A stretch of 33,148 bases of DNA from Woeseiaceae bacterium. Lineage in GTDB: Bacteria > Pseudomonadota > Gammaproteobacteria > Steroidobacterales > Woeseiaceae. Below, in pieces: positions 9,740 through 31,453 of this stretch. Made by a program: the position numbers and the translations under genes. The notes under the pieces are model-generated. The model was not told where the DNA came from, ran no database searches, and saw only the letters and a list, made by a program, of their open reading frames with translations. Within the stretch, counting starts at the first letter, position 1; each line of letters opens with the position of its first letter. The stretch spans positions 1-33,148 of the forward strand of contig JBLHLN010000001.1 of assembly GCA_047620565.1 (NCBI GenBank). The letters run 5' to 3'.

Positions 9740-10342
9740 TCAGAATGCGATGCGCAGAAATTCATGCAGGTCATCCCGGGCCATTTTTTGCTGATCCCAG
9801 AGTTGAAACTCCTGCGGGAAAACACCGGACGACTGTAATCGAAGGTCGGTCGCTTCAGCGATCAGCCTGATCTGATCCACGGTAACCTCATAGTAGGCAT
9901 CTACTGCCGATGCGACCGGTTTGAGATATGCGGGCTCACTTAAACCGATGGAATCCGGCGTCCAGCCGATGACATTCAGCGATAGCGGCTCACCATCCGC
10001 AAAAATTAAAATCGACTCAAAGGCATTGCGATGCTCGGAGATTTCGGTAACCCGCATCGTGCTCCAGATTCCGACCCAGAGATAATATCGAAGACTTCCA
10101 ATGCGATTAACCTGGATCGGACCCATATTTACCAGGTTCCTCGCGTAGGCGGCCTTGGCCCAGTTTTCCCGATAGAGAATGAGGGGTGCTTCGACAAATG
10201 TAACAGTCACGCCTGTCAGTGGATCGAGTTTCTCATTGCTGATTGACGGAGACGTTCCGCAGCTGATCAGCCCCAGCAGAAAAAATATTGCTGCGCCTCG
10301 GCAAGCCGATTGGCATGAGAGAAGCAGGTCGCGAGCCGGCAT
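9740..10342 (-). CDS. Lipoprotein of unknown function, last gene of the multihaem operon
   Basis: The lipobox is FFLLGLIS-C-GTSPS. The ATG shares 1 nt with the stop of the upstream gene (TGATG at 10342), implying translational coupling. I recognise no family. Confidence 0.7.
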   Translation of the reverse strand: MPARDLLLSCQSACRGAAIFFLLGLISCGTSPSISNEKLDPLTGVTVTFVEAPLILYRENWAKAAYARNLVNMGPIQVNRIGSLRYYLWVGIWSTMRVTEISEHRNAFESILIFADGEPLSLNVIGWTPDSIGLSEPAYLKPVASAVDAYYEVTVDQIRLIAEATDLRLQSSGVFPQEFQLWDQQKMARDDLHEFLRIAF

Positions 10343-12855
10343 CAGAAAAAAGCCTGGTAACCAAGATTAATAAAGTAGGATTCTCGATCGAGATTTACGA
10401 TATTCGTTTGACGCTCGACAAATTGCTTGCCAACTTCAAGCTCCATGCGAAATTTTCGACTCCATCGTAATTGCATGCGCAGGCCCGGTGTATAGATCCA
10501 TTCGTAGTCTATCTCTCCGAGTCTCTTCCGACGGTCCACGCGCAGTCGCGGATTAATACGGAATTTTTCCCCGAATGGCATACGGGTATCAAGGCTTGCG
10601 GATATGACTTCTGCCGTGTCAGATGTTGAATATCGCAGACCGATAATAGACACATCTCCCTCTTTCAGGAGGCTGCTGGCAGTCAGGTTGGCTGAATAGT
10701 ACTCGTAGCTGGTCTTCTGTGTCGCCTCGACGCCACCTGACGCGGGCGTTCCATCCACGTCAGTCTGATTAACATCTGCACTGATTTGCAGCCTCGGCGT
10801 AAGCGAATGTGAAACGCCAAGAGAAAACGTGGTGGCAATTGAGGTGCGATCGATTCCTAACTGGCGGAGCTCGTCTTCACTGAAAATCACTGCCAACTCG
10901 GCAAAGGAAGCAACTGGTTGCCCGATAATGGCATTGCCCGTGCTCAGGAACGGACTGCGTCGTCGATCCAATGAGCCATGCAGGGTCAGACGATTTGCAA
11001 AACGCCAGCTCCCATGCAAATAGGCGCTGCCAATTTCCTTAAACAACGTGTCGTAATCGAGCATGCCCCAAAGACTCTGATTTGCGCCGAAATAGCGAAA
11101 TTCCGCACCGATAGCCTGTCTATCGTCGATGCCTTCAATATCCTGTTGAACGTAGAACATGCCCAGTTCCAGATCCTCCAGAATGGGACCATAGGTGACG
11201 CTGGCGCCATAGAATTTCCTCTCCGAGTTGATGCCAGCCGAGGATGAATTGACCGGCATGCCCATCACTGCATTCACCAGAACGCGGTCACTGGCCTGGT
11301 AGCCAAGATTGAGTCCGTCGAAGCGTCCCAGGACACCACCGGTATTTCTTGATTGCCTGCCCACCCTGCCGCGCAGTCCTGTTCTGACGTCAGCAAGGTC
11401 GGCGTAGGCGTAGGAGATGCGAACGTCGTTGCCTGATCCGCTTTCAGCGTCCAGGAAATCGCTGCGGTATCCCGCAGAAATTCGGCTGCTGAAGTCAAAG
11501 CGTTGTCCTCGCCGCCTGGCATCGAAATTGACGTCTGAGTAAAGCGCAGACTGGCTGATGATTTCATCCTGCGAATTCATCTGATTGACGTCACGGCGAT
11601 AATACTGCGAAAAATACGTCTGAATTCTCCAATCGCTTTGCGTCGATCTGGAGCTGCCAACCCGGGTGTCGGAAGTGGTCGTAGTACTGCTGGAGCGTCG
11701 ATCGACCGCCAGAAGCGCGGCAAGTCGTTGGTTGACCCGCGTTGCCCCGTCATCGTCAGGGTAAAGAGACAGATACTTTTGATACTCTGCTCTTGCGTGC
11801 GCCTCCTGGCCGTTCTTCTCTCTGCACAAGGCCAACAGTTCCTGTGCCTCCGGGTGCCTATCATGATTAGGCACGCGCAGAACCTTGGTATAAATCTGCA
11901 CCGCTCTTGAGTATTCTTTCGCGACCATGGCAAGTCGGGCGTCATTCATAAGAACGTCAATCTGATCCAGGCCGATCGAAGCAAATACAGTGTTGGCAGC
12001 AGTATCGGTCGGCTCTGTTACAGCCGCATCCGGACGACGTTCTGCGACAGCTGTCGTGCCATCATCAGCCCGGTCAATCCATGCAGTCGGGTACTGGTCG
12101 CGCAGTTTCAGGAGTTCCACCTGGGCCTCGGCAGTACTGTTGAAGTGACCGAGACGCAATCGATACCAGGTTGCGCCCGCCAGAACCACTTCCGTCTCAA
12201 ACACTTCGAGACCGGCCGAAATAGTGATTGCAGACATGTCGGACTCGGCATGCGGCTGGCGGCTGGATGAAAGATTGATTGCGTAGGAAAGTTGCGGCTC
12301 CGGTGGTCTCCTTACTCTTACACCGCTGGCGCCCGACTTCGCCCTGGCTTTGGCGAGCGGCTGCTCGAAGCGCAGTCTGACGGTTATGGTGTTCGAAGTA
12401 CCGCTGTGCAGCACTTCGTATTCGACCGCATCGCCAAATACGAGCGTTAGTATCTGGCCGCCGCTGCTGTTTCCATCGTAGATAATTTCCTGCAAATTTA
12501 TGAGGTCTGCCTGCAGGGGTCGGTATTGTTCGCGTGACTGAGCGGCCAGCGGCGACACACCGTTGCAGATCGTTGTGGCCTCCAGTTGAATGCGCAGCGT
12601 TTCTCCGCGGTCCACCGGGAAATGATCGATGTACTCGACGCCACAAGCCAGTTCTATCGTTACTTCCGCGAGTGCGTTGCCGCGCGTGACCTTGGAGCCG
12701 GTGATAAATCCGGGCGCGGCAAAGCCCCCCGGCGCCAGGCTTACAAGCAGCAAGCAGGCCAGGTACTTTATGAAACGAGAATTGAGAATGCTGAAATCCA
12801 ATGCGTAGCCGCTACCATTCTTTGTCACTGATTCTGTGACAGCCACTCTCAGCAC
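10342..12855 (-). CDS. Outer-membrane-type protein: N-terminal AMIN-like region + SPOR domain + TPR segment + C-terminal beta-barrel
   Basis: Residues are numbered from the GTG at 12855. The signal-like stretch is YLACLLLVSLAPGGFAAPG. A SPOR-like segment spans about aa 188-262 (YAINLSSS...ATWYRLRLGHFNSTAEAQVELLKLRDQYPTAWI). TPR-like helices span about aa 296-385. From about aa 405 there is an alternating-polarity, Y/G/S/D-rich sequence ending ...NLGYQAFF, the aromatic C-terminus typical of BAM substrates. The start is uncertain: GTG at 12855 or TTG at 12801. Confidence 0.7.
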   Translation of the reverse strand: MLRVAVTESVTKNGSGYALDFSILNSRFIKYLACLLLVSLAPGGFAAPGFITGSKVTRGNALAEVTIELACGVEYIDHFPVDRGETLRIQLEATTICNGVSPLAAQSREQYRPLQADLINLQEIIYDGNSSGGQILTLVFGDAVEYEVLHSGTSNTITVRLRFEQPLAKARAKSGASGVRVRRPPEPQLSYAINLSSSRQPHAESDMSAITISAGLEVFETEVVLAGATWYRLRLGHFNSTAEAQVELLKLRDQYPTAWIDRADDGTTAVAERRPDAAVTEPTDTAANTVFASIGLDQIDVLMNDARLAMVAKEYSRAVQIYTKVLRVPNHDRHPEAQELLALCREKNGQEAHARAEYQKYLSLYPDDDGATRVNQRLAALLAVDRRSSSTTTTSDTRVGSSRSTQSDWRIQTYFSQYYRRDVNQMNSQDEIISQSALYSDVNFDARRRGQRFDFSSRISAGYRSDFLDAESGSGNDVRISYAYADLADVRTGLRGRVGRQSRNTGGVLGRFDGLNLGYQASDRVLVNAVMGMPVNSSSAGINSERKFYGASVTYGPILEDLELGMFYVQQDIEGIDDRQAIGAEFRYFGANQSLWGMLDYDTLFKEIGSAYLHGSWRFANRLTLHGSLDRRRSPFLSTGNAIIGQPVASFAELAVIFSEDELRQLGIDRTSIATTFSLGVSHSLTPRLQISADVNQTDVDGTPASGGVEATQKTSYEYYSANLTASSLLKEGDVSIIGLRYSTSDTAEVISASLDTRMPFGEKFRINPRLRVDRRKRLGEIDYEWIYTPGLRMQLRWSRKFRMELEVGKQFVERQTNIVNLDRESYFINLGYQAFF

Positions 12856-15487
12856 AATTCTGGTCGTTGCTCAGACCTCGGTGGTCATCTTCGCCTGCCT
12901 TGTAGTCTCTCGCATGACAACCGGCGCAGTTTGGTCGGTAACCGGGTGACGACCAGTTGACGTTCTCCGAGTTATTCTGGTGGCACTCGGTGCATTGAAA
13001 GTTGCCACGATGGTCTTGCGGTTCATATGGCAACGTAACGTGACGGTAATCGGCCGGTGTCCAGCCATTGGTGATATGGCAGGTATCGCATTGCTGGTTC
13101 GTGGCAAAGTGATTCGTGTTCTGCCCGATCGCCGCAACGCCGTTGTGGCAGGACGTACATGAGCCCAGCACCTGGCTGTGATCAACAGTCAACACAGGCG
13201 CAAACACATTCGTCGTATGGCAGTCTTCACAGATGTTTGTCGTTTGCACGTGCGTCAGATTCTTGCCGGTCGCGTCGGTACCGTTATGACAACTGACACA
13301 GTTGCCAGTGATGTTCGCATGGTCGAAATTCGCGGGCAGCCAGGCAACCGTGCTGTGGCAATCATCACAATTGTTGCCACTGGCAATATGCGTCGGATGT
13401 TTACCTGTCGCTGTGACGCCGTCGTGACAGGAACCACAAGCGCCAAGCACCTGGGTATGATCGACTATCGTCACAGGCACAAATACGTTGGTGTTATGGC
13501 AGTCTTCACAAACATTCGTCGTCTGTGGATGGGCAGGGTTCTTGCCCGTAGCATCTGCGCCGTTGTGGCAATTGACGCAATTTCCGGTAATCGTCGCGTG
13601 GTCAAATGTCGCGGGCAACCAACCGGCCGTGGTGTGACAATCATCACAGGTGTCACCACTCGCGATGTGCGTTGGGTGTTTGCCGATGGCAACAACGCCG
13701 TCATGGCACGAATCACAAGTGCCTATTACCTGCGTGTGATCAACGGTCATTACCGGTGCGAAAATGTTGGTTGTATGACAATCTTCACAGACATTGGAGG
13801 TCTGGATGTGGGTCGGATTCTTGCCGGTGGCATCCGTACCGTTGTGACAACTGACACAATTGCCGGTGATGTTCAGGTGATCGAAATTGGCGGGTAACCA
13901 GCCAACCGTGCTGTGGCAGTCATCGCAATTGCTGCCGCTGTCAATATGGGTCGGATTCTTGCCTGTTGCGGTGACACCATCGTGACAGGCGCTGCACGAA
14001 CCAATAACCTGGTTGTGGTCAACGGTTATCACCGGTGCAAAGACGTTACTGCTGTGACAGTCCTCGCAAACGTCTGTCGTTTGTACGTGTGTTGGATTCT
14101 TGCCGGTGGCATCTGTGCCGTTATGGCAGCTGACACAATTACCGATGATATTCGCATGGTCGAAATTTGCGGGCAACCAGGCAACCGTGCTGTGGCAATT
14201 GTCACAGGTGTTGCCACTGGCAATATGCGTGGGGTGTTTGCCGGTGGCATCTGTGCCGTTGTGGCAGGAACCGCAACTTCCCAGGACCTGGGTGTGATCC
14301 ACGGTTACTGCAGGCACAAACATATTCGTGCTGTGGCAGTCTTCGCAAACATTGGTCGTTTGCACGTGCGTCGGGCCTCTGCCGATGGCGTCCGTACCGT
14401 TATGGCATGAGCCGCAGGTTCCCAGCACCTGCGTGTGATCAACGGTCGATACTGGAGCAAATGCAACTGTTGAATGACAGTCTTCGCAAACATTCGTTGT
14501 TTGCACATGCATCGGATTCTTGCCCGTCGCGTCTGTGCCGTTATGGCAGCTACTGCAATTGTCCGTAATGTTCGCATGATCAAACTTGGCAGGTAGCCAG
14601 CCAACCGTCGTATGACAATCGTCGCAAGTGTCGCCGCTGGCAATATGCGTGGCATGCTTGCCGGTGGCAATAACGCCATCGTGGCAGGAGCCGCAACTGC
14701 CAATTACCTGCGTATGATCTACGTTAGTTGGCGGCACCCAAATCGTGGGGCTATGGCAGTCCTCGCAGATATTGGTCGACTGAATATGAGTTGCATCTTT
14801 GCCGGTCGCCTCGATGCCGTTATGGCAGCTGACGCAATTGCCGAGAATATTTACATGATCAAAATTCGCCGGTACCCAGCCAAAAGTCGTATGGCAATTG
14901 TCGCAGGTGTCGCCGCTGGTAATGTGCGTTGCGTTCTTGCCAGTAGCGCTGACGCCATTGTGGCAACCAACGCAGTTACCAACGACTCCACTATGGTCGA
15001 ATACGGCCGGTAACCAGCCGGTCGTACTGTGGCAATCGTCACACTGATCGCCGGAGGAGATGTGGCCTGGAGTTTTTCCAGTCGCCTGAAAGCCGTTATG
15101 GCAGCCAAAACAACTCCCCGTGAGTGATGAATGGTCAACAAACGCCACCGGAACCCACGACGACGTTGTGTGACAGTCCGAGCAGATACCGTTCGTTGCT
15201 ATGTGATCTGGAGATTTCGCAGACGCGCGAACGAGCCCACCGGGAGAGTGACAGTTTACGCATGCCTGCTGCGTCGTACCGAATGTCGCGCTAACGTGAC
15301 ACCCTTCACAGGTCACATTGGCATGAGCGCCATCAAGTACAAAACCGGTGCTGAAATGATCAAAGGGCTGCTGCGCAAAAGCATTTGATTGCAACAACAA
15401 CATGCCCAATAGTGCGATCACGAGCAGACCGATCCAATAATGTGTGCTGTCCTTAGCACCCCTTGCAAAACGCTTCGAGAATTTCAT
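12812..15487 (-). CDS. Giant multihaem c-type cytochrome (35 CxxCH + 1 CxxxxCH), paired-CXXCH repeat type
   Basis: I count 35 CxxCH motifs plus NCAESGCH in the translation. The signal is MKFSKRFARGAKDSTHYWIGLLVIALLGMLLLQSNAFA-QQ. The preferred ATG at 15487 forms an ATGA overlap with the upstream stop (15484-15486). Each ~23-24-aa unit carries exactly one further His, consistent with bis-His ligation. Confidence 0.9.
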   Translation of the reverse strand: MKFSKRFARGAKDSTHYWIGLLVIALLGMLLLQSNAFAQQPFDHFSTGFVLDGAHANVTCEGCHVSATFGTTQQACVNCHSPGGLVRASAKSPDHIATNGICSDCHTTSSWVPVAFVDHSSLTGSCFGCHNGFQATGKTPGHISSGDQCDDCHSTTGWLPAVFDHSGVVGNCVGCHNGVSATGKNATHITSGDTCDNCHTTFGWVPANFDHVNILGNCVSCHNGIEATGKDATHIQSTNICEDCHSPTIWVPPTNVDHTQVIGSCGSCHDGVIATGKHATHIASGDTCDDCHTTVGWLPAKFDHANITDNCSSCHNGTDATGKNPMHVQTTNVCEDCHSTVAFAPVSTVDHTQVLGTCGSCHNGTDAIGRGPTHVQTTNVCEDCHSTNMFVPAVTVDHTQVLGSCGSCHNGTDATGKHPTHIASGNTCDNCHSTVAWLPANFDHANIIGNCVSCHNGTDATGKNPTHVQTTDVCEDCHSSNVFAPVITVDHNQVIGSCSACHDGVTATGKNPTHIDSGSNCDDCHSTVGWLPANFDHLNITGNCVSCHNGTDATGKNPTHIQTSNVCEDCHTTNIFAPVMTVDHTQVIGTCDSCHDGVVAIGKHPTHIASGDTCDDCHTTAGWLPATFDHATITGNCVNCHNGADATGKNPAHPQTTNVCEDCHNTNVFVPVTIVDHTQVLGACGSCHDGVTATGKHPTHIASGNNCDDCHSTVAWLPANFDHANITGNCVSCHNGTDATGKNLTHVQTTNICEDCHTTNVFAPVLTVDHSQVLGSCTSCHNGVAAIGQNTNHFATNQQCDTCHITNGWTPADYRHVTLPYEPQDHRGNFQCTECHQNNSENVNWSSPGYRPNCAGCHARDYKAGEDDHRGLSNDQNCAESGCHRISDKEW

Positions 15488-17052
15488 TGCAATGACCTCA
15501 CTTCCGTGAAGGAATTTTCTGTGTGGCAACGGCTACAATCCTGGCCAAATTCACTATCGTGGACATCGTCAGCGCGATGACAATCCACGCAGCTGCTACC
15601 TAGCCTGTGCATCGATGCCAGGGAGGTTCGATGGCAGTCGTCACACGCAACCTCTACATGTGCGCCTTCGAGTATGAATTCTGTACGAGTGTCGTGATCG
15701 AACAGCCACAAGTCCCAGGCGACCGGGTTATGACAATCGCCACATTGTTCCTCAAAGCGGTTTTCGTGGACATCGTCTTCCAGGTGGCAATCGATACATT
15801 GATTATTTGTGCCAACAAACACCTGGCTTTCATGGCAGGAGTCGCACTCGAGGTTGTCGTGTTCACCAAGCAGCGGGAATTTCGTAATGTCGTGATCAAA
15901 AAATGGTGCTTCCTGCCAGCTCTCTTCCGTGTGGCAATCATTACACTGATCGCCCTGCTTGCCGCCGTGCGGCTCGTCCTCCAGGTGGCAGGAGGCACAG
16001 AATGTTTCAGGCGATGTGTCAAAAATCGGTTCAACGTGACAGTCGACACACGCGACCGTTTCGTGAGATCCGTGCAATTCGAAATCGGTGTCGATGTTGT
16101 GCAGGAAGTGTATGTCCGGCCACTTGTCGTTGGTATGGCAACCTGCACAGTCGGTGCCGTTATGGCCATCGTGGTCATCATCGTCCACGTGGCATCCTGC
16201 GCAAGTCGTATCGAGCTCATCAGCAAACGGATCGTCACTGTGGCAATCATCGCAGATCAGCAGCGTGTGACTGCCCTCGAGCAGGAAGTCGGTATCGCGC
16301 GCATGGTCGAAGCTGGTGTCAGTCCAGTCAACCGGGTTATGACATTTTTCGCATTGCTCACCGCTGCGACCGTCGTGAGCGTCATCAGCTGCGTGACAGC
16401 CGAAGCATGTGTCCTCCGTGAAGGCGAAAGACTTGTCCTCGTGACAGTCGCCACAGGCTACGTCAACGTGATTGCCAACCAATGGATAGTCAGTTGTGTC
16501 ATGGTCAAAAGTGACCTCGAGCCAGTCCGTTTCGTTGTGACAGCCCGCGCATTCCGTACCAATACTCTCATCGTGAATGTTGTCCTCACGATGGCAATCG
16601 ATGCATTCTTGTGGCGCGTCGCGACGCTTGTCCGATGGCTCATGGCATCCGGCGCACTCGGCTTCGGCATGTTTGCCGACTAGTTCGTAGTCAGTAAATG
16701 CATGATCGAAATCCGACTCATCCAGTACGATGATGTTGGCGTTCCGTCCTTCGTGATCTGTATGGCAAGAGAAACATTCAGCGGAGCTTGCCTCGGCGAA
16801 TTTGCCGTGAAATCCCGATTCACTATTGATGTCGCCTTTAACATCTTCGTGACAGTCGGCACAAAGCGTGGATTGCTCCGCGCGATCAAAGCGCTTGTGA
16901 CAGGAGGTGCAATCCGCCTCCAGTTCCGCATGCCCCAGGATGAGTTCCCCGGGCATTACGAGGGATTCGACGTTCTGAGCGACAGATGGCTGGCTATGAA
17001 TGCAGGCCATCATGATCAATGCTCCAGTTAGTACGAATGTCCATCGTTTCAT
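15484..17052 (-). CDS. 21-haem c-type cytochrome built from seven trihaem (cytochrome c7/c3-like) modules
   Basis: There are 21 CxxCH motifs with a repeating spacing pattern of C..CH-(11-13)-C..CH-(13)-C..CH-(~27-29). Each module also has three extra conserved His (FDH, G.H, D.H). The preferred ATG at 17052 gives MKRWTFVLTGALIMMACIHSQPSVAQ, which is a signal peptide or a possible atypical lipobox MMAC. Confidence 0.9.
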   Translation of the reverse strand: MKRWTFVLTGALIMMACIHSQPSVAQNVESLVMPGELILGHAELEADCTSCHKRFDRAEQSTLCADCHEDVKGDINSESGFHGKFAEASSAECFSCHTDHEGRNANIIVLDESDFDHAFTDYELVGKHAEAECAGCHEPSDKRRDAPQECIDCHREDNIHDESIGTECAGCHNETDWLEVTFDHDTTDYPLVGNHVDVACGDCHEDKSFAFTEDTCFGCHAADDAHDGRSGEQCEKCHNPVDWTDTSFDHARDTDFLLEGSHTLLICDDCHSDDPFADELDTTCAGCHVDDDDHDGHNGTDCAGCHTNDKWPDIHFLHNIDTDFELHGSHETVACVDCHVEPIFDTSPETFCASCHLEDEPHGGKQGDQCNDCHTEESWQEAPFFDHDITKFPLLGEHDNLECDSCHESQVFVGTNNQCIDCHLEDDVHENRFEEQCGDCHNPVAWDLWLFDHDTRTEFILEGAHVEVACDDCHRTSLASMHRLGSSCVDCHRADDVHDSEFGQDCSRCHTENSFTEVRSLQ

Positions 17053-17065
17053 CCCGTTAAACCAA

Positions 17066-17974
17066 TTAGTACATGTGCACTGCAAGTACATGTAACAAGG
17101 CGGAAATAATCATCATGAAAAAAAGCGGCAAATGCAGAACATGCCAAATAGAAAGAAATTTCTCGTACAACGTGAATTGAGCGACATTGCTCATCTGATG
17201 CACAAATTTTCGTATGTACAAAGAGGTGGATTTCTTCAGGCGCGGCAGGTCTCGGTCAATTGTCGGAGACTCAGCGGCGCGCTCCTTCAATTCCCGGTTC
17301 GCTGCCCGTGATAATGAAAACCAAAGCGTATAGCGACGAATTTTCCACTTCAGGCTTGCGCTGCTTTTTATCGTTCGGGTAAATTGATCGCCCTGGACTT
17401 CCGCGGAAACTGCTTCCAGTCGCTTTGTCAGGCCCGGCAACAGGTTCGCGAAACCGCTGTTTGCTTCAAGTGAGTTCTGCAGATCATTACGTAATTCGTT
17501 CAGGCTGGTTTTCCGACCGTACAGGCCCCTGTGTACATGAGCATAAATGTGCCTCCCGACAATACCGCTGCCGGCGACAAGCAACATGCAGTAAAGGGCG
17601 ACCTTGCTATTAAATGAGCCAAGTCGAAAATTGGAGTGGTACAAAATCAATAGCGGCCCGAGCAGGCCGAGTATCATATGAATGCGGAACCAGCCGCTTG
17701 TGGTGCCAAGAAATCCGAAGGCCTTTAGTCGCTTTCGTAGCGGATATAACAGCAGCACCAACATCATTGAGCCACCAATGATACCGAGCCAATAGCCAAC
17801 ACCGTATTCGGCGTCGATGAAGCCGTAGTCCCGCAGCAACCAGCCGATACCGATGGCGATCGTTAATAGCGTGTAACTGTAAAAAGTACTGCTTTGCCGG
17901 GTTTCCCTGGTGCCGAACAAACGTTCGCGGAAATTGCCGGACGCAAAAGCCGTGTCGAGGGTCGTTTCATTCAT
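17066..17974 (-). CDS. 5-TM His-rich inner-membrane protein with two Hx13H motifs (candidate dihaem b-type electron-transfer subunit)
   Basis: Residues are numbered on the 319-aa track ORF. TM3 (FRIHMILGLLGPLLILYH) has H116 and H130 separated by 13 residues. The C-terminal TM (WHVLHLPLFFMMIISALLHVLAVH) has H298 and H312, also separated by 13. A ~120-aa amphipathic soluble insert lies between TM4 and TM5. The preferred ATG at 17974 (MNETTLD) overlaps the upstream gene by 8 nt. I recognise no named family. Confidence 0.6.
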   Translation of the reverse strand: MNETTLDTAFASGNFRERLFGTRETRQSSTFYSYTLLTIAIGIGWLLRDYGFIDAEYGVGYWLGIIGGSMMLVLLLYPLRKRLKAFGFLGTTSGWFRIHMILGLLGPLLILYHSNFRLGSFNSKVALYCMLLVAGSGIVGRHIYAHVHRGLYGRKTSLNELRNDLQNSLEANSGFANLLPGLTKRLEAVSAEVQGDQFTRTIKSSASLKWKIRRYTLWFSLSRAANRELKERAAESPTIDRDLPRLKKSTSLYIRKFVHQMSNVAQFTLYEKFLSIWHVLHLPLFFMMIISALLHVLAVHMY

Positions 17975-18791
17975 TGACCGACCCCTCGCCAGCGCCGGTA
18001 ATAAGCAATTCGACAAGGTCGCCATTGGCCGGGACTATCGGCGCCGATGTGACCTCGAAACTATTTAGCGTATCGCCGGCATTTCCGGAGCGAGACACCT
18101 TTGCCGTTACGACCAGTTGCGCGTAATCCGACATGCTGGTTCCGGGTACCATTGCCTGCTCATCCGATAGTTCAAACTCCAGCGGCAGATCGGCAACCGA
18201 CTTGCGCAAGGCAGCAACCGGCATTCGCTGTTCAACCGACTCTTTGGCGAAGATAAAAATCGTATCGCTCATTTGCACCTGCACGGCGACCTCGGGGGAT
18301 AAGGACAAGCGTCCACGAATTCCAGTACTCGCAGGACTGCTCGCGACATTGTCGTCGTCACTCGAGCCGTATAGTGATTTCTCCAGTTCAGGGTGCGACT
18401 GGCCGAGCGAGGTAGCTTTTTCGTAGGCGGCGATCGCTTCCTTTTTTTGCCCGAGATGGTCATAAGAGCGCGCAAGCAGTAACCAGCCAGCGCCATCGTC
18501 CGGCTGTTTTTGCAGACGTGCCTTCAGTCCATCAATAAGGCTGTCAACCGTTGGAACTCCGTCGCTGCTTTTCGTGCTGACCGGGTTCTGATGTTGTGCA
18601 CGAGGCTCTTCGGTTATGGCTGCCGGTGTGCCCAGCGCTACGTAGAGGCCGACAGCAGTTATCGGCACCAGTACAGCGAGCAGAAATCGGGGGGATCGGA
18701 GCAGGCGTTTTGCCGGCCCAAGCGGGAGCGCAACGATCATGATCGCTGCTACCAGCATCATAATGATCATCCCCCAGAAAAAGTACGACAT
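17967..18791 (-). CDS. ccmI: CcmI/CycH-like c-type cytochrome biogenesis (apocytochrome chaperone) protein, stand-alone copy
   Basis: Two N-terminal TM helices flank a basic loop (IMIVALPLGPAKRLLRSPRFLLAVLVPITAVGLYV). A TPR segment follows (GAGWLLLARSYDHLGQKKEAIAAYEKATSLG). The C-terminal domain is CcmI-type (IRGRLSLSPEVA...TIFIFAKES...RMPVAALRKSVADLPLEFELSDEQAMVPG...VVTAKVSRSGNAGDTL). Confidence 0.7.
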   Translation of the reverse strand: MSYFFWGMIIMMLVAAIMIVALPLGPAKRLLRSPRFLLAVLVPITAVGLYVALGTPAAITEEPRAQHQNPVSTKSSDGVPTVDSLIDGLKARLQKQPDDGAGWLLLARSYDHLGQKKEAIAAYEKATSLGQSHPELEKSLYGSSDDDNVASSPASTGIRGRLSLSPEVAVQVQMSDTIFIFAKESVEQRMPVAALRKSVADLPLEFELSDEQAMVPGTSMSDYAQLVVTAKVSRSGNAGDTLNSFEVTSAPIVPANGDLVELLITGAGEGSVNE

Positions 18792-19180: not shown

Positions 19181-20500
19181 GTGAGCGGATCCTTACTTAA
19201 CTACCTGTACCTGATACCAGTAATCATCCTGGTGGGCTGGTACATGCGTCGCCACTCAAACCTTGAAAAGCGCAGTCTGGAAGCGTTACGGATCGCTACT
19301 GAAGCCGGCATGCTGGAGCCGCCAACGCTGCATCCCGAGATTGACCTGAATACCTGCATAGGCTGCAAATCCTGTGTTGCTGCCTGTCCGGAACAGGACT
19401 CGCACGTGGTGCTTGGCATGATCGGAAAAAAAGCGCGCCTCGTCGGGCCGTCTGATTGCATCGGTCATGGTGCCTGCAAAACAGCATGCCCGGTCGGCGC
19501 AATTAAGCTTGTATTCGGTACCGCCACGCGCGGCGTGGATATCCCGGTCGTCAAACCAAATTTCGAGACGGACGTTCCAGGCATTTTCATTGCCGGCGAA
19601 CTCGGCGGCATGGGACTGATTCGAAATGCGATCGAGCAGGGTAGACAAGCAATGCAGTCGATCAGTGAACTGCTGAAGAAGAAACACAATAACGATCATG
19701 ACATCGTTATCGTTGGCGCGGGTCCGGCAGGCTTTTCAGCGTCCCTGGGTGCGAAAGCGGCGAACATGAAGTGCGTGACCATTGAGCAGGAAACACTCGG
19801 CGGCACTGTTGCGCATTTTCCGCGACGAAAACTGGTTATGACGCAGCCGGCGGAATTACCGATAGTGGGCAAGGTTTCCTTTAAGGAAGTGCAGAAAGAA
19901 GACTTAATGGAATTTTGGCAGAAGGTTGAGAAAGACACCGCTGTCGAAATCAATTACAACGAGCGGGTTGAGTCGGTGCAGCCGGTATCGGGCGGCACCG
20001 GTTACCTGGTAGAAACCAATCGCGGCAAATACAACACGCGGACATTACTCCTGACGATCGGGCGGCGAGGTACGCCGCGTACCCTTGGCGTGCCCGGTGA
20101 AGAGTTGCCAAAAGTTGCGTATCGGCTCATCGATCCCGAGCAATACAAAGACCAGCATGTGCTGGTCGTTGGCGGCGGTGATAGTGCGCTCGAAGCTGCG
20201 ACCAGCATTGCAGAGGAGCACGGGACAACCGTTACACTCTCATATCGTTCTGGCGCTTTTGCTCGAGCCAAACAGAAAAATCGCGAAAAGATCGAGGCCA
20301 TGCAGGGAGCCGGAAGACTGCGCGTGTTGCTGAATTCCAATGTAAAAGAAATAACAGAGGATGCAGTAACCATTGCTCTTGAAGATACTGAGGAGACCAT
20401 CGAGAATAATTTTGTGATCGTTTCTGCCGGCGGCATCCTGCCAACGAAGTTCTTGCAAAGTATCGGCATCATCGTGGAAACAAAATGGGGCAATGAGTAG
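19181..20500 (+). CDS. Membrane-anchored 2x[4Fe-4S] ferredoxin domain fused to an FAD/NAD(P)H oxidoreductase (thioredoxin-reductase-like fold)
   Basis: GTG start. The N-terminal TM helix is LLNYLYLIPVIILVGWYM. The two cluster motifs are CIGCKSCVAACP and CIGHGACKTACP. The dinucleotide motifs are IVIVGAGPAGFSA and VLVVGGGDSALEAA. A GD-type FAD motif (VPGIFIAGELGGMGLIRNAIEQGRQA) lies before rather than after the Rossmann motifs. Confidence 0.8.
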   Translation: MSGSLLNYLYLIPVIILVGWYMRRHSNLEKRSLEALRIATEAGMLEPPTLHPEIDLNTCIGCKSCVAACPEQDSHVVLGMIGKKARLVGPSDCIGHGACKTACPVGAIKLVFGTATRGVDIPVVKPNFETDVPGIFIAGELGGMGLIRNAIEQGRQAMQSISELLKKKHNNDHDIVIVGAGPAGFSASLGAKAANMKCVTIEQETLGGTVAHFPRRKLVMTQPAELPIVGKVSFKEVQKEDLMEFWQKVEKDTAVEINYNERVESVQPVSGGTGYLVETNRGKYNTRTLLLTIGRRGTPRTLGVPGEELPKVAYRLIDPEQYKDQHVLVVGGGDSALEAATSIAEEHGTTVTLSYRSGAFARAKQKNREKIEAMQGAGRLRVLLNSNVKEITEDAVTIALEDTEETIENNFVIVSAGGILPTKFLQSIGIIVETKWGNE

Positions 20501-25436: not shown

Positions 25437-27422
25437 TTAACAGGACACGCAGTTGTGATTATTGATGGCGCCGTAGTTCTCGAGTAGCGCTATGGTGTCC
25501 GGAAACGGGGCGACTCGCTGAATCGGCCCGTTCGCCATATCCACTGTAGTCTGACCTTTGCGACTGATCACCATCACATCTGCGCCCTGGTCGACCAGGT
25601 ATGTCACAAGCTCGTTGTCGCCACGTGACGCAGCGTGATGCAATGCCGTATAGCCATTCGCATCCCTGCTGTTTACATCGGCGCCACATTCCTCAACGAG
25701 AAACCTGACTGCCGGCAACCAGCTATCCGGAGCATAACGATGCGCGTTGCCCGCGAATTGCTGCCCATACCCTGCACCAGCTGCCGCATGAATTGGATGG
25801 ATGAATGGTCCGCCAACCGGGACAGGTGGCAAGCCTGATTTGTCCTCATCCTCGTCCACTTCTTCCGGCTCGGGTTCCTGCGAAGCGGTATATGTCGTCG
25901 CTTTGGCGCTGTCGCCTTTCTTTATCTCTTCCTCGACAGGATCAGGTTGCGGACGTCTGCGACGTTCCGGCCGTTTTACGGTCGGCATATCGGCATCAGC
26001 GCCATGTTCCTTCAGCATCTCCATGGCTTTGACGTCGAGTGCCTGTGTCGCCCTCCAGAAGGGTGTGGCTCCTTCGTAATGGATGCCGGCAGCGCCCAAT
26101 ACTGCAAAAGTGTATTCCGAATACCAGAGGTGTGACACCAACCGCGCATTCGGATCAGCGCCGGCATCGAGCAATGCCTCCATGACTTCATAGTGGGTGG
26201 CGATCTGTTGTTGATGTTCGATCGGATGCGAGTACGATGCGCGCGGCGCCCAGGTGCGTTCAATAACCGCAAACAGCGGGGCGGTGCCTGCGATACTGGT
26301 CAAATTCGGGTTGGCACCGCGCTCGATCAGCCGCAATGCAACGTCGAACTGACCATTAACGGCAGCCATCAATAACGGCGATGTGTCGTCGCCGCCACTG
26401 GTTTGATTTATATCTGCTCCGGCATCCAGCAGGAGTTCGACTGCCTCAATGTGCCCCTGGCGAATGGCGTGCTGGAGTGCAGTAAGTCCGCCCATGCTGC
26501 CGACCAGCTGTCCATAGGTGGGTCTTTTTGGTTCCGCATTCTCGTCTTCGGCATCTGCTGCCGCCGCATAATCGTATTCCGGCTCACCGTCAGCGTTGTA
26601 GGTAACCGCAAGCGCACATTTGTCGATTACAGGTTCATCATCTTCCTCAGATGGCACAAAATCATCACAGGACGGGTCGGGAACATCGGGCCATTTGCGC
26701 TGTATTTCACGCGACGCCTCGATGGCCGCTTGCACCTGGCTGGGCTGAGGTTGCCAGTTCGGACCGCCACCTTCTTTTACCTTGAACTCCGCAAGAAATT
26801 CGACAATGCGTTTTTCCGCAGCCTTGTCTGCTTTTTCGTCTGTAGCGACATCCTTAACTCGCGCGGTAATCGCAGTGTCAGCGCCAGCTGCAAGCAGAAC
26901 CTTCATTACATCGATGCGGTTATAAGCCGAAGCAAATATCAGCGGTGTCTGTCCCCACGCACGCTCGACGGCGTTTACATCAGCTCCGGCTTCAAGAAGC
27001 GCGACTACAGACTCCGGATCGCCGGATGCTGCTGCCAGGTGCAGTGGCATGACGCCGGAATTTACCGTTGCCGCGCTGGCGTCCGCATTTGCGGCCAGCA
27101 GCACTTTGACAACTTCGGCATTGCCGTTGCGGCTGGCAATGTGCAAAGGACGATAACGCCCGATGCGGGTACCGGCCTCGATATTGCCGCCGGCGTAAAT
27201 GAGTATTTCGGCAATTTCGCTGTCACCACGCTCCGCGGCCCAATGCAGCGCGGTCATACCGTCACCCTGAGGTTCATTGACATCCTCGCCATCCCTGAGC
27301 AATTGACGCAGCGATGACAAATCGCCACTTTGCGCAGCATCGGCCACCGGTTTTACAGCCGCACTTGCTGTGCCTGCGACGGCCAGCAGCAGCAAAAAGA
27401 AAATCGTGCGTAGTTTGCTCAT
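25437..27422 (-). CDS. Secreted ankyrin-repeat protein (661 aa) with acidic linkers
   Basis: The signal is MSKLRTIFFLLLLAVAGTASA-AV. Many ANK units are present (GMTALHWAAERGDSEIAEILIYAGGNIEA, RPLHIASRNGNAEVVKVLLAANAD, MPLHLAAASGDPESVVALLEAGADVN, GYTALHHAASRGDNELVTYLVDQGADV). The ATG at 27422 forms an ATGA overlap with the upstream stop. Confidence 0.85.
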   Translation of the reverse strand: MSKLRTIFFLLLLAVAGTASAAVKPVADAAQSGDLSSLRQLLRDGEDVNEPQGDGMTALHWAAERGDSEIAEILIYAGGNIEAGTRIGRYRPLHIASRNGNAEVVKVLLAANADASAATVNSGVMPLHLAAASGDPESVVALLEAGADVNAVERAWGQTPLIFASAYNRIDVMKVLLAAGADTAITARVKDVATDEKADKAAEKRIVEFLAEFKVKEGGGPNWQPQPSQVQAAIEASREIQRKWPDVPDPSCDDFVPSEEDDEPVIDKCALAVTYNADGEPEYDYAAAADAEDENAEPKRPTYGQLVGSMGGLTALQHAIRQGHIEAVELLLDAGADINQTSGGDDTSPLLMAAVNGQFDVALRLIERGANPNLTSIAGTAPLFAVIERTWAPRASYSHPIEHQQQIATHYEVMEALLDAGADPNARLVSHLWYSEYTFAVLGAAGIHYEGATPFWRATQALDVKAMEMLKEHGADADMPTVKRPERRRRPQPDPVEEEIKKGDSAKATTYTASQEPEPEEVDEDEDKSGLPPVPVGGPFIHPIHAAAGAGYGQQFAGNAHRYAPDSWLPAVRFLVEECGADVNSRDANGYTALHHAASRGDNELVTYLVDQGADVMVISRKGQTTVDMANGPIQRVAPFPDTIALLENYGAINNHNCVSC

Positions 27423-28786: not shown

Positions 28787-28817
28787 ATTCGAACCTCTAA
28801 AAAATTCTATTACTCGA

Positions 28818-31190: not shown

Positions 31191-31453
31191 CCAGCTCCCC
31201 CCGGGCAGCGGCTGTTGTACGACCCCCAATAATACAACGGTTTTGCGCCTTTGAAGCTCAGTATTCGCCCATATTGACAGCGCAATCTCGGAAGCCGTGA
31301 CAAATCGCCTGAATCTGGCGACTAGCTCGGCGCTGCCGCGGATATCGAGTCATCCTGATCAGGGTCGCATGGCCTGTCGGAGCCATCCGGCAGGTATGAC
31401 CTTGCGGTATAGTGCTGCCCATCGTGATCTAACGCCGCCAAGAAGAATTCATT

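What the first reader, a model, noticed from the sequence alone, without database searches (positions are those of the whole stretch)
17066..17974. Unassigned 5-TM protein with two Hx13H helices: candidate new inner-membrane entry or exit point for the haem wire
Two predicted TM helices each carry His pairs exactly 13 residues apart. They are FRIH-MILGLLGPLLILY-H and LH-LPLFFMMIISALL-HVLAVH. This is the spacing used to ligate two stacked b-haems across the membrane in cytochrome b and in ferric-reductase-domain (NOX/MsrQ-type) proteins. Further His residues cluster at the TM4 end (GRHIYAHVH). The operon contains no CymA/NapC/NrfH-, ImcH- or CbcL-type protein, so this is the only candidate link to the quinone pool or the cytoplasm. 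A ~120-aa amphipathic insert between TM4 and TM5 is unusual for known dihaem-b families.
Basis: partly seen in the sequence, partly recalled or inferred. Interest (0 to 1): 0.68.

Follow-up and report, generated by a model that had tools for sequence, protein, structure and literature searches.

The report
PCC3 inner-membrane dihaem-b candidate protein
This gene encodes the already-described but never tested inner-membrane subunit of a "PCC3" porin–cytochrome electron conduit, probably a two-haem membrane cytochrome, and it sits almost always beside an iron-sulfur flavoprotein gene that may link the conduit to NAD(P)H rather than to quinones.

Summary
Window 17066-17974 (-) encodes a 302-aa, five-helix membrane protein. 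H99/H113 on TM3 and H281/H295 on TM5 are each 13 residues apart and are invariant in 123 homologues of 30-93% identity.

The candidate is not new. It matches every stated feature of the "conserved inner membrane protein" (IMP) of the PCC3 cluster (He et al. 2017, PMC5566968):
- about 300 aa with 5 TM helices
- SGxxG on TM4
- Wx3Hx13H on TM3 and TM5
- a cluster that also holds a 21-haem cytochrome, a 35-36-haem cytochrome and a large outer-membrane protein

It is 38% identical to the IMPs of Sideroxydans and Gallionellaceae. That paper already proposed two b-haems, a resemblance to the ferric reductase domain (FRD) and quinone coupling. No experiment has tested this.

Fold and profile searches did not establish membership of any solved dihaem-b family.

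One point is absent from the papers I read. The divergent gene at 19181-20500 encodes a TM anchor, a two-cluster Fe-S domain and a YpdA/TrxR-type FAD/NAD(P)H domain. It accompanies the IMP in 64 of 77 genome loci with enough flank, and the IMP accompanies it in 39 of 41 metagenome loci. This suggests a split NOX-like, NAD(P)H-linked conduit.

Verdict: a new member of a known kind, of moderate interest.

The parts
17066..17974 (-). PCC3 inner-membrane protein (IMP), 302 aa plus stop codon. This is the finding itself.
   Evidence: ORF. Homologues are 302 aa. The family has 2,911 clusters at 50% identity with E <= 1e-3. No Pfam or NCBIfam family matches.
17633..17692 (-). TM3 carrying W95-x3-H99-x13-H113. 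H99 lies near the cytoplasmic face and H113 at the periplasmic end.
   Evidence: H99, H113, F96, G103 and P107 are invariant; W95 is 96% conserved.
17537..17605 (-). TM4 with the invariant S136-G137-x-x-G140 motif, followed by R141, Y144 and H148 at the cytoplasmic interface.
   Evidence: The motif is named in He et al. 2017.
17162..17536 (-). Cytoplasmic helical insert between TM4 and TM5, about 124 aa. Candidate docking surface.
   Evidence: Length is 110-143 aa across 123 members, with 20.5 K+R on average. It is helical, with block-mean pLDDT 74-98 for residues 201-270. Sequence is poorly conserved.
17069..17161 (-). TM5 carrying W277-H278-x2-H281-x13-H295-x4-H300. The C-terminus is periplasmic.
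   Evidence: W277, H281, P283 and H295 are invariant; H278 is 99% and H300 is 97% conserved. A DNA pattern built from this motif found the family in 119 of 123 loci analysed.
17967..18791 (-). Short CycH/CcmI-like protein (TPR_CcmH_CycH plus Ig_CycH domains). Its stop overlaps the IMP start by 8 nt. Probably a cytochrome c maturation chaperone for the giant cytochromes.
   Evidence: Pfam hit. Overlap ATGAATGA. The same gene lies between the two partners in 21 of 48 metagenome loci and occurs in 20 of 119 genome loci.
15484..17091 (-). 21-haem cytochrome c, corresponding to the periplasmic multihaem cytochrome (MHC) of PCC3. The likely real start is the MKRW.. codon at 17052, 14 nt after the IMP stop.
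   Evidence: 21 CxxCH motifs and a signal-like N-terminus. Pfam Cytochrome_C7 / c3. Homologues with 18-27 CxxCH follow the IMP in the loci inspected, and a homologue is present in 115 of 119 loci.
12812..15529 (-). 35-36-haem cytochrome c, corresponding to the extracellular MHC of PCC3.
   Evidence: 35 CxxCH plus 1 CxxxxCH. Pfam and NCBIfam hits. He et al. report a median of 34 haems for this component.
10342..12855 (-). 837-aa outer-membrane protein in the PCC3 porin position, with SPOR and TPR domains in the N-terminal third. The barrel itself was not checked here.
   Evidence: Pfam hit. Homologues sit in the same position in L076, L033 and L025.
9740..10342 (-). 200-aa protein with a lipoprotein-like N-terminus. 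Last gene of the cluster.
   Evidence: N-terminal LLGLISC motif. Conserved in L001, L002 and L076.
19181..20500 (+). Divergently transcribed membrane-anchored Fe-S flavoprotein. It has an N-terminal TM helix, a two-cluster ferredoxin domain whose second motif is CxxHxxCxxxCP, and a YpdA/TrxR-type FAD/NAD(P)H domain. Proposed cytoplasmic partner of the IMP.
   Evidence: Domains. Sequence. The anchor is present in 50 of 58 homologues and the CIGHGAC motif is conserved in all 9 sequences of alignment A3. Adjacency: 64 of 77 genome loci, and 39 of 41 reciprocally.

Best explanation
The ORF encodes the inner-membrane subunit (IMP) of a PCC3-type porin-cytochrome cluster.

**Proposed mechanism.** It is a five-helix protein that most likely binds two b-type haems stacked across the membrane. 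One haem sits near the cytoplasmic face, ligated by H99 (TM3) and H281 (TM5). The other sits near the periplasmic face, ligated by H113 and H295. Electrons hop between the two haems. This connects the 21-haem periplasmic cytochrome encoded 14 nt downstream, and through it the 35-36-haem cytochrome and the outer-membrane protein, with a partner at the cytoplasmic face.

**Proposed partner.** The most likely partner is the divergently encoded, membrane-anchored Fe-S flavoprotein: NAD(P)H, then FAD, then two Fe-S clusters. Together they would form a two-component, NOX / MsrQ-Fre-like unit that bypasses the quinone pool. The 124-aa cytoplasmic insert and the conserved cytoplasmic loops would serve as its docking surface.

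**Direction.** Flow from NAD(P)H outward is downhill and is assisted by the membrane potential, so electron export is the likelier direction.

**What is shown and what is inferred.** Shown: family membership, motif invariance, topology by charge, and the gene associations. Inferred: haem binding, the identity of the partner, and the direction of flow.
For: **Membership of the PCC3 IMP family.**
- All features listed by He et al. 2017 are present.
- The protein is 38% identical (E 1e-50 and 2e-49) to IMPs that sit next to multihaem cytochrome genes in Sideroxydans and Gallionellaceae (24 CxxCH in L081).

**Dihaem b.**
- The four His are invariant in 123 diverse members.
- Both pairs lie at matching depths given the N-in topology.
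- Invariant Gly/Pro/Ser residues lie on TM3 and TM4.
- Sub-threshold Pfam hits include three cytochrome-b or related families: DUF4405 in 44 of 123 members, Ni_hydr_CYTB in 9, and Ferric_reduct in 4 with best E 1.3e-4. I recall that Pfam groups these in one clan.
- A homologue, Slit_1446, is detected in the ES-1 proteome.

**Partner.**
- Of 77 genome loci with at least 1.8 kb of upstream flank, 64 carry the flavoprotein gene, and 55 have it divergent within 2 kb. These loci span Alpha-, Beta- and Gammaproteobacteria.
- Of 41 metagenome loci anchored on the flavoprotein with at least 2.2 kb of flank, 39 carry the IMP.
- The flavoprotein has a conserved N-terminal TM anchor followed by positive charges, so its cofactor domains face the cytoplasm.
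- It lacks YpdA's Cys14, so it is unlikely to be a disulfide reductase.

**Direction.**
- PCC3 is not induced by Fe(II) in ES-1.
- PCC3 is widespread in organisms that are not iron oxidisers.
Against: - No haem-binding experiment exists for any member of the family.
- Foldseek found no significant structural relative.
- Neither PDB sequence profiles nor hhalign against MsrQ or YodB found any relationship.
- I could not inspect the model coordinates, so the His-His geometry is unverified.
- 13 of 77 loci with enough flank lack the flavoprotein nearby, and their IMPs keep the same insert.
- Divergent adjacency proves co-inheritance, not physical contact.
- No fusion of the two proteins was seen among the 10 N-terminally extended homologues scanned.
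- Some hosts are obligate iron oxidisers. For them, exporting NAD(P)H electrons looks wasteful.
Confidence: 0.5

Rival explanations
1. Quinone-coupled dihaem cytochrome b, the published PCC3 model. In this view the IMP exchanges electrons between the periplasmic multihaem cytochrome and the quinone pool, like the b subunits of the bc1 complex or of [NiFe]-hydrogenase 1. The neighbouring flavoprotein would be co-regulated or unrelated.
For: - He et al. 2017 proposed it on the basis of the same motifs.
- Conserved Arg, Lys, Tyr and His residues at the cytoplasmic interface (R80, K81, R141, Y144, H148) could form an N-side quinone site as readily as a docking site.
- 13 of 77 loci lack the flavoprotein nearby.
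- Quinone coupling would suit iron-oxidising hosts such as Sideroxydans.
- It is from my own knowledge that the known EET inner-membrane proteins (CymA, ImcH, CbcL) are quinol-linked.
Against: - No recognisable quinone-site motif and no homology to a quinone-reactive cytochrome b were found.
- The model leaves the tight, reciprocal association with a membrane-anchored NAD(P)H/FAD/Fe-S protein unexplained.
- PCC3 is down-regulated on Fe(II) in ES-1.
Confidence: 0.3
2. Maturation helper. In this view the IMP and the flavoprotein deliver reducing power to the periplasm to keep haem iron or apocytochrome thiols reduced while about 57 haems are attached to the two giant cytochromes. They would work with the adjacent CcmI/CycH-like chaperone rather than carrying respiratory current.
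For: - A CycH/CcmI-like gene overlaps the IMP start in the window. It lies between the two partner genes in 21 of 48 metagenome loci and is present as a full-length version in L206.
- The flavoprotein is of the thioredoxin-reductase fold class.
Against: - By phmmer with the window protein, the CycH-like gene was found in only 20 of 119 genome loci.
- The IMP has no conserved Cys pair of the kind DsbD or CcdA use. C129 is conserved only among close relatives.
- The flavoprotein lacks the CxxC motif of TrxR and the Cys14 of YpdA.
- The IMP's periplasmic loops are only 9-10 aa.
Confidence: 0.07
3. Not a cytochrome. In this view the conserved His residues bind another metal or have a structural, transport or sensing role, for example as a membrane sensor or metal channel accompanying the cytochromes.
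For: - No significant match to any haem-protein family or structure was found.
- Three additional conserved His residues (H148, H278, H300) are not explained by a dihaem model.
- The top Foldseek hits are four-helix-bundle sensor domains: McpS, TorS and PilJ, with E 0.3-4.
Against: - The sensor hits are not significant and are driven by the helical insert.
- There is no output domain.
- An i/i+14 spacing on two helices at matched depth, with Gly-rich neighbouring faces, is the signature of stacked bis-His haems (established knowledge).
- The sub-threshold Pfam hits include the cytochrome-b families Ni_hydr_CYTB and Ferric_reduct.
Confidence: 0.08

Closest known systems
PCC3 'conserved inner membrane protein' (IMP), e.g. 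Slit_1446 and the IMP of the Slit_0867-0870 cluster of Sideroxydans lithotrophicus ES-1 (He et al. 2017, PMC5566968)
   Same: - About 300 aa with five TM helices.
- SGxxG on TM4 and Wx3Hx13H on both TM3 and TM5.
- A gene cluster with a 21-haem periplasmic cytochrome, a larger cytochrome in the extracellular-MHC position and a large outer-membrane protein.
- 38% identity to the Sideroxydans and Gallionellaceae proteins.
   Different: - The host is a marine-sediment gammaproteobacterium whose nearest named relatives are Woeseiaceae MAGs.
- A short CcmI-like gene precedes the IMP.
- Periplasmic loop 3 is 8 aa shorter than in Gallionellaceae.
- No functional difference is evident.
Ferric-reductase-domain proteins (NOX, FRE, STEAP) and the two-component MsrQ-Fre system
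   Same: - Two Hx13H-type helices (TM3 and TM5), predicted to stack two b-haems across the membrane.
- An NAD(P)H/FAD module at the cytoplasmic face. Here it is a separate polypeptide, as Fre is for MsrQ (own knowledge).
   Different: - No significant sequence or fold match. Only 4 of 123 members give sub-threshold PF01794 hits.
- Five TM helices rather than six, plus a 124-aa cytoplasmic insert.
- The donor module is of the TrxR/YpdA type and carries two Fe-S clusters and its own TM anchor.
- The acceptor is a 21-haem cytochrome, not O2, Fe3+ or MsrP.
Quinone-reactive dihaem cytochromes b (cytochrome b of bc1, FdnI, HyaC, NarI)
   Same: Bis-His dihaem logic. In the bc1 complex the His pairs are 13 residues apart on two helices (and own knowledge).
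   Different: - No detectable homology. Ni_hydr_CYTB gives sub-threshold hits in only 9 of 123 members, and hhalign against YodB is negative.
- Different helix number and different ligand distribution.
- No identified quinone site.
Hmc and Tmc transmembrane redox complexes of sulfate reducers
   Same: The same circuit logic: a periplasmic multihaem cytochrome c, a membrane cytochrome b and a cytoplasmic Fe-S protein, linking periplasmic and cytoplasmic redox pools (own knowledge).
   Different: - The subunits are unrelated. The Fe-S proteins there are HdrD-like with CCG domains.
- There is no flavin/NAD(P)H module and no outer-membrane porin-cytochrome part.
CymA/NapC, ImcH, CbcL: the established inner-membrane entry points of extracellular electron transfer
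   Same: The same position in the pathway, as the inner-membrane link to periplasmic multihaem cytochromes.
   Different: Those proteins carry c-type haems and oxidise quinol. The IMP has no CxxCH motif, and no protein of those families is encoded in the cluster.

Membership tests
PCC3 IMP (He et al. 2017) | About 300 aa with five predicted TM helices | tested here: met
   302 aa. The AF2 helices and the charge-free segments give TM1 30-47, TM2 58-77, TM3 95-114, TM4 124-146 and TM5 272-302.
PCC3 IMP (He et al. 2017) | SGxxG on TM4 | tested here: met
   S136, G137 and G140 are invariant in 123 members.
PCC3 IMP (He et al. 2017) | Wx3Hx13H on both TM3 and TM5 | tested here: met
   W95-H99-H113 and W277-H281-H295.
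PCC3 IMP (He et al. 2017) | Encoded with a porin, a periplasmic MHC (about 21 haems) and a larger extracellular MHC | tested here: met
   A 21-CxxCH cytochrome, a 35+1-motif cytochrome and an 837-aa outer-membrane protein lie immediately downstream. The barrel of the outer-membrane protein was not examined.
PCC3 IMP (He et al. 2017) | Sequence homology to IMPs of PCC3 clusters in iron oxidisers | tested here: met
   38% identity, E 1e-50 and 2e-49, to the Sideroxydans (L065) and Gallionellaceae (L081) proteins, which are flanked by multihaem cytochrome genes (24 CxxCH in L081). The ES-1 protein itself was not retrieved.
Ferric reductase domain superfamily (PF01794: NOX, FRE, MsrQ, STEAP) | Profile match to PF01794 above the gathering score | tested here: not met
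   The window protein gives no hit. 4 of 123 members give sub-threshold hits, best E 1.3e-4. hhalign against E. coli MsrQ gives probability 0.2.
Ferric reductase domain superfamily (PF01794: NOX, FRE, MsrQ, STEAP) | Fold similarity to solved FRD structures | tested here: not met
   Foldseek against PDB gave no match with E <= 0.001, and no NOX, STEAP or MsrQ structure appears among the 50 matches listed. The test was run on the whole model including the insert, so it is weak.
Ferric reductase domain superfamily (PF01794: NOX, FRE, MsrQ, STEAP) | Two His pairs on TM3 and TM5 that ligate two b-haems | tested here: inconclusive
   The motif and its invariance are present. Haem ligation cannot be tested here.
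DUF4405 (PF14358); I recall that Pfam places it in a two-haem cytochrome clan | Profile match above the gathering score (26.7 bits) | tested here: not met
   The window protein scores 13.4 bits, E 0.12, over residues 79-113. 44 of 123 members give sub-threshold hits, best E 0.0072. This is suggestive of distant kinship only.
Prokaryotic cytochrome b561 / Ni_hydr_CYTB (PF01292) | Profile match | tested here: not met
   9 of 123 members give sub-threshold hits, best E 0.0044. hhalign against E. coli YodB gives probability 0.1.
NapC/CymA/NrfH, ImcH, CbcL quinol dehydrogenases | c-type haem motifs (CxxCH) in a membrane-anchored protein | tested here: not met
   The IMP has no CxxCH motif and gives no family hit.
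b-type cytochrome (any) | Non-covalent haem b bound, about 2 per polypeptide, with a bis-His low-spin spectrum | not testable with these tools
   Needs expression and spectroscopy. None is reported for any family member.

The most novel reading that the evidence does not exclude
The PCC3 IMP and the divergently encoded, membrane-anchored Fe-S flavoprotein form a split NADPH-oxidase-like enzyme. The proposed path is NAD(P)H, then FAD, then two Fe-S clusters (one with a conserved His in place of Cys), then two b-haems, then a wire of about 57 c-haems to the cell surface. Under this reading PCC3 is a quinone-independent route that exports cytoplasmic reducing equivalents to extracellular acceptors (Fe/Mn oxides, humics, O2). 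It would not be the Fe(II)-oxidation conduit it has been assumed to be. It would operate in abundant sediment bacteria such as Woeseiaceae, and in symbionts, methylotrophs and iron oxidisers.
Probability: 0.35. Interest if true: 0.75.

Novelty: new member of a known kind. Interest (0 to 1): 0.42.

Why it matters
**The open step in PCC3.** PCC3 clusters encode some of the largest multihaem cytochromes known and occur widely in Alpha-, Beta- and Gammaproteobacteria. The step across the inner membrane has never been tested. This protein is the only transmembrane candidate for that step.

**Why the coupling partner matters.** Whether the IMP couples to quinones or to the NAD(P)H pool decides two things. 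It decides whether PCC3 can conserve energy, and in which direction it can run: iron oxidation or electron export.

**What this work adds.** The conserved pairing with an NAD(P)H/FAD/Fe-S protein gives a concrete hypothesis that can be tested biochemically. If correct, it would change how PCC3 genes are read in metagenomes of sediments, symbioses and iron-rich habitats.

**The finding as submitted.** It is a rediscovery of a published prediction.

Tried and rejected
- **First AF2 model.** Built from 30 close homologues, it was poor (pLDDT 64.5). It was replaced by a model from 123 diverse sequences (pLDDT 85.6).
- **Foldseek against PDB.** Nothing significant. The weak hits to cytochrome b561, Dcytb and the Wolinella fumarate reductase C subunit (E 0.9-3.5, TM-score 0.15-0.20) are not evidence.
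- **PDB sequence searches.** Profiles A1 and A2 returned only coiled-coil noise from the insert.
- **hhalign.** Family profile against single E. coli MsrQ and YodB sequences: negative. No MsrQ or YodB homologues exist in the fetched loci from which a profile could be built.
- **Fusion proteins.** Ten homologues with N-terminal extensions carry SPOR or TPR domains, or nothing. None carries a redox domain.
- **Genome scan with alignment A2.** It was replaced by a degenerate DNA pattern built from the TM5 motif. 4 of the 123 loci analysed lacked the gene.
- **Insert as flavoprotein-specific docking site.** I tested whether IMPs without an adjacent flavoprotein have a different insert. They do not, so the test does not discriminate.
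- **Expression data for the ES-1 flavoprotein gene.** Slit_1445 is not in the supplement held.
- **Divergent intergenic region.** One promoter-like site, consistent with chance, and two short palindromes. Nothing informative.
Full report
**1. The observation**

Window 17066-17974 on the minus strand is an open reading frame of 302 codons plus a stop. A longer reading from 18025 exists. However, the roughly 4,200 homologues found are nearly all 302 aa and begin MNE.., so 17974 is the start.

The start overlaps the stop of the upstream gene by 8 nt (ATGAATGA). The next gene begins 14 nt after the stop, so the ORF sits in a tightly packed operon.

- H99 and H113 are separated by 13 residues on the third hydrophobic segment.
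- H281 and H295 are separated by 13 residues on the fifth hydrophobic segment.

A search of 1.84 billion cluster representatives found 2,911 related clusters. In an alignment of 123 members of 30-93% identity to the window protein, only 17 columns are invariant. H99, H113, H281 and H295 are four of them. With only 10 His in the protein, this happens by chance with p = 0.0012.

Of the "GRHIYAHVH" cluster, only H148 is conserved (91%).

**2. Anatomy and topology**

An AlphaFold2 model built on the 123-sequence alignment is confident (mean pLDDT 85.6, pTM 0.78). It is all-helical.

Averaged over the family, the five hydrophobic segments carry almost no charge. The charge distribution across the loops is as follows:

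| Segment | Length | K+R | D+E | Side |
|---|---|---|---|---|
| N-terminus (last 29 aa) | about 25 aa | 4.0 | 1.7 | cytoplasmic |
| Loop 2 | 17 aa | 5.3 | 0.1 | cytoplasmic |
| TM4-TM5 insert | about 124 aa | 20.5 | 12.6 | cytoplasmic |
| Loop 1 | 10 aa | 1.3 | 2.3 | periplasmic |
| Loop 3 | 9 aa | 0.2 | 0.1 | periplasmic |

By the positive-inside rule the protein is N-in. This places H99 and H281 a few residues from the cytoplasmic face, and H113 and H295 at the periplasmic face. That is the geometry needed for two helices to ligate two stacked haems. This step is inference, because I could not read the model coordinates.

The insert is kept at 110-143 aa in every member. It is helical and poorly conserved in sequence.

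**3. What it is**

The downstream genes encode:
- a cytochrome with 21 CxxCH motifs and a signal-like N-terminus
- a cytochrome with 35 CxxCH and one CxxxxCH motif
- an 837-aa outer-membrane protein
- a 200-aa protein with a lipoprotein-like N-terminus

This is the gene content of the "PCC3" porin-cytochrome cluster described by He et al. 2017 (PMC5566968). Its fourth component is a "conserved inner membrane protein" of about 300 aa. That protein has five TM helices, SGxxG on TM4 and Wx3Hx13H on TM3 and TM5. It was proposed to bind two b-haems like the ferric reductase domain or cytochrome b, and to talk to the quinone pool.

The window protein has every one of these features: W95-H99-H113, S136-G137-x-x-G140 and W277-H281-H295.

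A degenerate DNA pattern built from the TM5 motif was scanned over species-representative genomes. Together with three loci fetched earlier, 119 of the 123 loci analysed carry a family member. Hosts include Sideroxydans, Gallionellaceae, Methylotenera, Aquabacterium, Rubrivivax, Thiodiazotropha, Sedimenticola, Woeseiaceae, Steroidobacteraceae, Novosphingobium and Hyphomicrobium. This overlaps the range He et al. report.

A homologue of the 21-haem cytochrome lies in 115 of the 119 loci. In the loci inspected it carries 18-27 CxxCH motifs and follows the IMP directly.

The window protein is 38% identical (E 1e-50 and 2e-49) to the Sideroxydans and Gallionellaceae proteins. Membership of the PCC3 IMP family is therefore established.

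Later papers still call the protein hypothetical and the complex functionally unverified. The ES-1 homologue Slit_1446 is detected in proteomes.

**4. Is it a member of a known dihaem-b family?**

- Pfam and NCBIfam give no hit.
- Foldseek against PDB gives no match with E <= 0.001. The hits to cytochrome b561, Dcytb and the fumarate reductase C subunit have E about 1-3.5 and TM-scores of 0.15-0.20.
- PDB sequence profiles hit only coiled coils, through the insert.
- hhalign against E. coli MsrQ and YodB is negative.

The only positive sign is weak. When all 123 members are scanned at a permissive threshold, sub-threshold hits include DUF4405 (44 members), Ni_hydr_CYTB (9) and Ferric_reduct (4, best E 1.3e-4). 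I recall that Pfam groups these three in one two-haem cytochrome clan.

My reading is that the protein works like a dihaem cytochrome b. It may be a very distant relative of that clan. It cannot be filed in the ferric reductase domain superfamily or in any solved family.

**5. The conserved neighbour**

The gene transcribed divergently at 19181-20500 encodes the following, in order:
- a hydrophobic N-terminal helix followed by RRH
- a two-cluster ferredoxin domain
- a FAD/NAD(P)H domain closest to YpdA and to TrxR-type ferredoxin-NADP reductases

In the ferredoxin domain the second motif is CxxHxxCxxxCP, with the His invariant. The first motif has Cys or Ser at its second position. The flavin domain lacks YpdA's Cys14 and has no TrxR CxxC motif.

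The anchor-then-positive arrangement places the cofactor domains in the cytoplasm. There is no twin-arginine signal before the hydrophobic stretch.

The association with the IMP is strong in both directions:
- Among genome loci with at least 1.8 kb upstream of the IMP, 64 of 77 carry this gene. In 55 of them it is divergent within 2 kb. Sideroxydans, Gallionellaceae and Thiodiazotropha are among them.
- Among metagenome loci fetched with the flavoprotein as bait, 39 of 41 with at least 2.2 kb of flank carry the IMP.

The flavoprotein is better conserved than the IMP: 44-62% identity across the genome-scan loci, against 30-43% for the diverse IMP representatives.

He et al. 2017 do not mention it; the terms pyridine, ferredoxin, FAD and 4Fe-4S do not occur in their text. 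My literature searches found no paper linking it to PCC3.

**6. Mechanism proposed**

Shown:
- family membership
- invariant His pairs at matched depths
- conserved surfaces on both faces: loop 2 (YPLRKR) and the end of TM4 on the inside, loops 1 and 3 on the outside
- an obligatory cytochrome neighbour
- a near-obligatory flavoprotein neighbour

Inferred: two b-haems shuttle electrons across the membrane between the 21-haem cytochrome and the Fe-S flavoprotein. Together they would form a two-component NOX-like unit, with MsrQ-Fre as the nearest analogue (own knowledge).

From textbook potentials, NAD(P)H to Fe/Mn oxides is downhill, and outward electron movement is favoured by the membrane potential. 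The reverse, from Fe(II) to NAD(P)+, is uphill by several hundred millivolts and runs against the potential. If the pairing is functional, PCC3 is more plausibly an electron-export route.

This fits two observations. PCC3 is down-regulated on Fe(II) in ES-1. It also occurs in many organisms that are not iron oxidisers.

My confidence in each step:

| Claim | Confidence |
|---|---|
| Family membership | about 0.95 |
| Two b-haems | about 0.7 |
| Flavoprotein is the partner | about 0.5 |
| Flow is outward | about 0.4 |

**7. Rivals**

- **Quinone-coupled cytochrome b, the published model (0.3).** It is not excluded. The conserved basic and aromatic residues at the inner face could form a quinone site, and 13 of 77 loci lack the flavoprotein nearby.
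- **Maturation role with the CcmI-like protein (0.07).** This is suggested by the overlapping CycH-like gene, which recurs in 21 of 48 metagenome loci. However, that gene was found in only 20 of 119 genome loci, and the IMP has no thiol chemistry.
- **Non-haem role (0.08).** This rests only on the negative fold searches and on the three unexplained His residues.

**8. Verdict**

Membership of FRD, NOX or cytochrome b families is not demonstrated.

The window adds a new, marine-sediment member of a known, uncharacterised kind. The reciprocal association with the Fe-S flavoprotein is the part that deserves follow-up.

Noticed in passing
window 19181-20500 (+): Membrane-anchored Fe-S flavoprotein with an unusual, invariant CxxHxxCxxxCP second cluster motif. 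The first motif has Cys or Ser at its second position, which suggests a His-ligated [4Fe-4S] or a [3Fe-4S] cluster. It is tightly and reciprocally linked to the IMP gene across Proteobacteria, and the PCC3 papers I read do not mention it.
   Followed up: yes
window 17967-18791 (-): Short (274 aa) CycH/CcmI-like protein with two N-terminal TM helices, a TPR region and an Ig_CycH domain. Its stop overlaps the IMP start by 8 nt. It recurs between the flavoprotein and IMP genes in 21 of 48 metagenome loci, and a 494-aa version is present in L206. It may be a dedicated chaperone for maturing the 21- and 36-haem cytochromes.
   Followed up: partly
window 17531-17533, 17141-17143, 17075-17077 (-): Three more conserved His residues in the IMP: H148 (91%), H278 (99%) and H300 (97%). 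They lie at the membrane interfaces and are not accounted for by a simple two-haem model.
   Followed up: partly
window 10342-12855 (-): The outer-membrane protein in the PCC3 porin position carries a SPOR (peptidoglycan-binding) domain and TPR repeats in its N-terminal third, ahead of the presumed barrel. Some family IMPs in the database also appear fused to SPOR or TPR N-terminal extensions (P0139, P0133, P0207, P0261).
   Followed up: no
window 12812-15529 (-): 905-aa cytochrome with 35 CxxCH motifs and one CxxxxCH motif, built from highly repetitive modules of about 60 aa (...CxxCHNGxxATGK...CxDCH...). Homologues range up to 65 motifs (Aquabacterium, L018).
   Followed up: no
window 25437-31229 (-): A 661-aa protein made almost entirely of ankyrin repeats, followed by a DUF1552 (HXXSHH) protein and a DUF1592/1588/1585/1587/1595 protein with a cbb3-type cytochrome c-like N-terminus. 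They appear unrelated to the finding.
   Followed up: no
L065 6375-7277 and L081 2239-3141: The Sideroxydans and Gallionellaceae IMPs have an 8-residue insertion in periplasmic loop 3 relative to the window protein. This is the face expected to meet the periplasmic cytochrome.
   Followed up: no
L006, L007: In two MAG loci the IMP or the flavoprotein gene is split into two overlapping frames. These are probably assembly frameshifts rather than pseudogenes.
   Followed up: no
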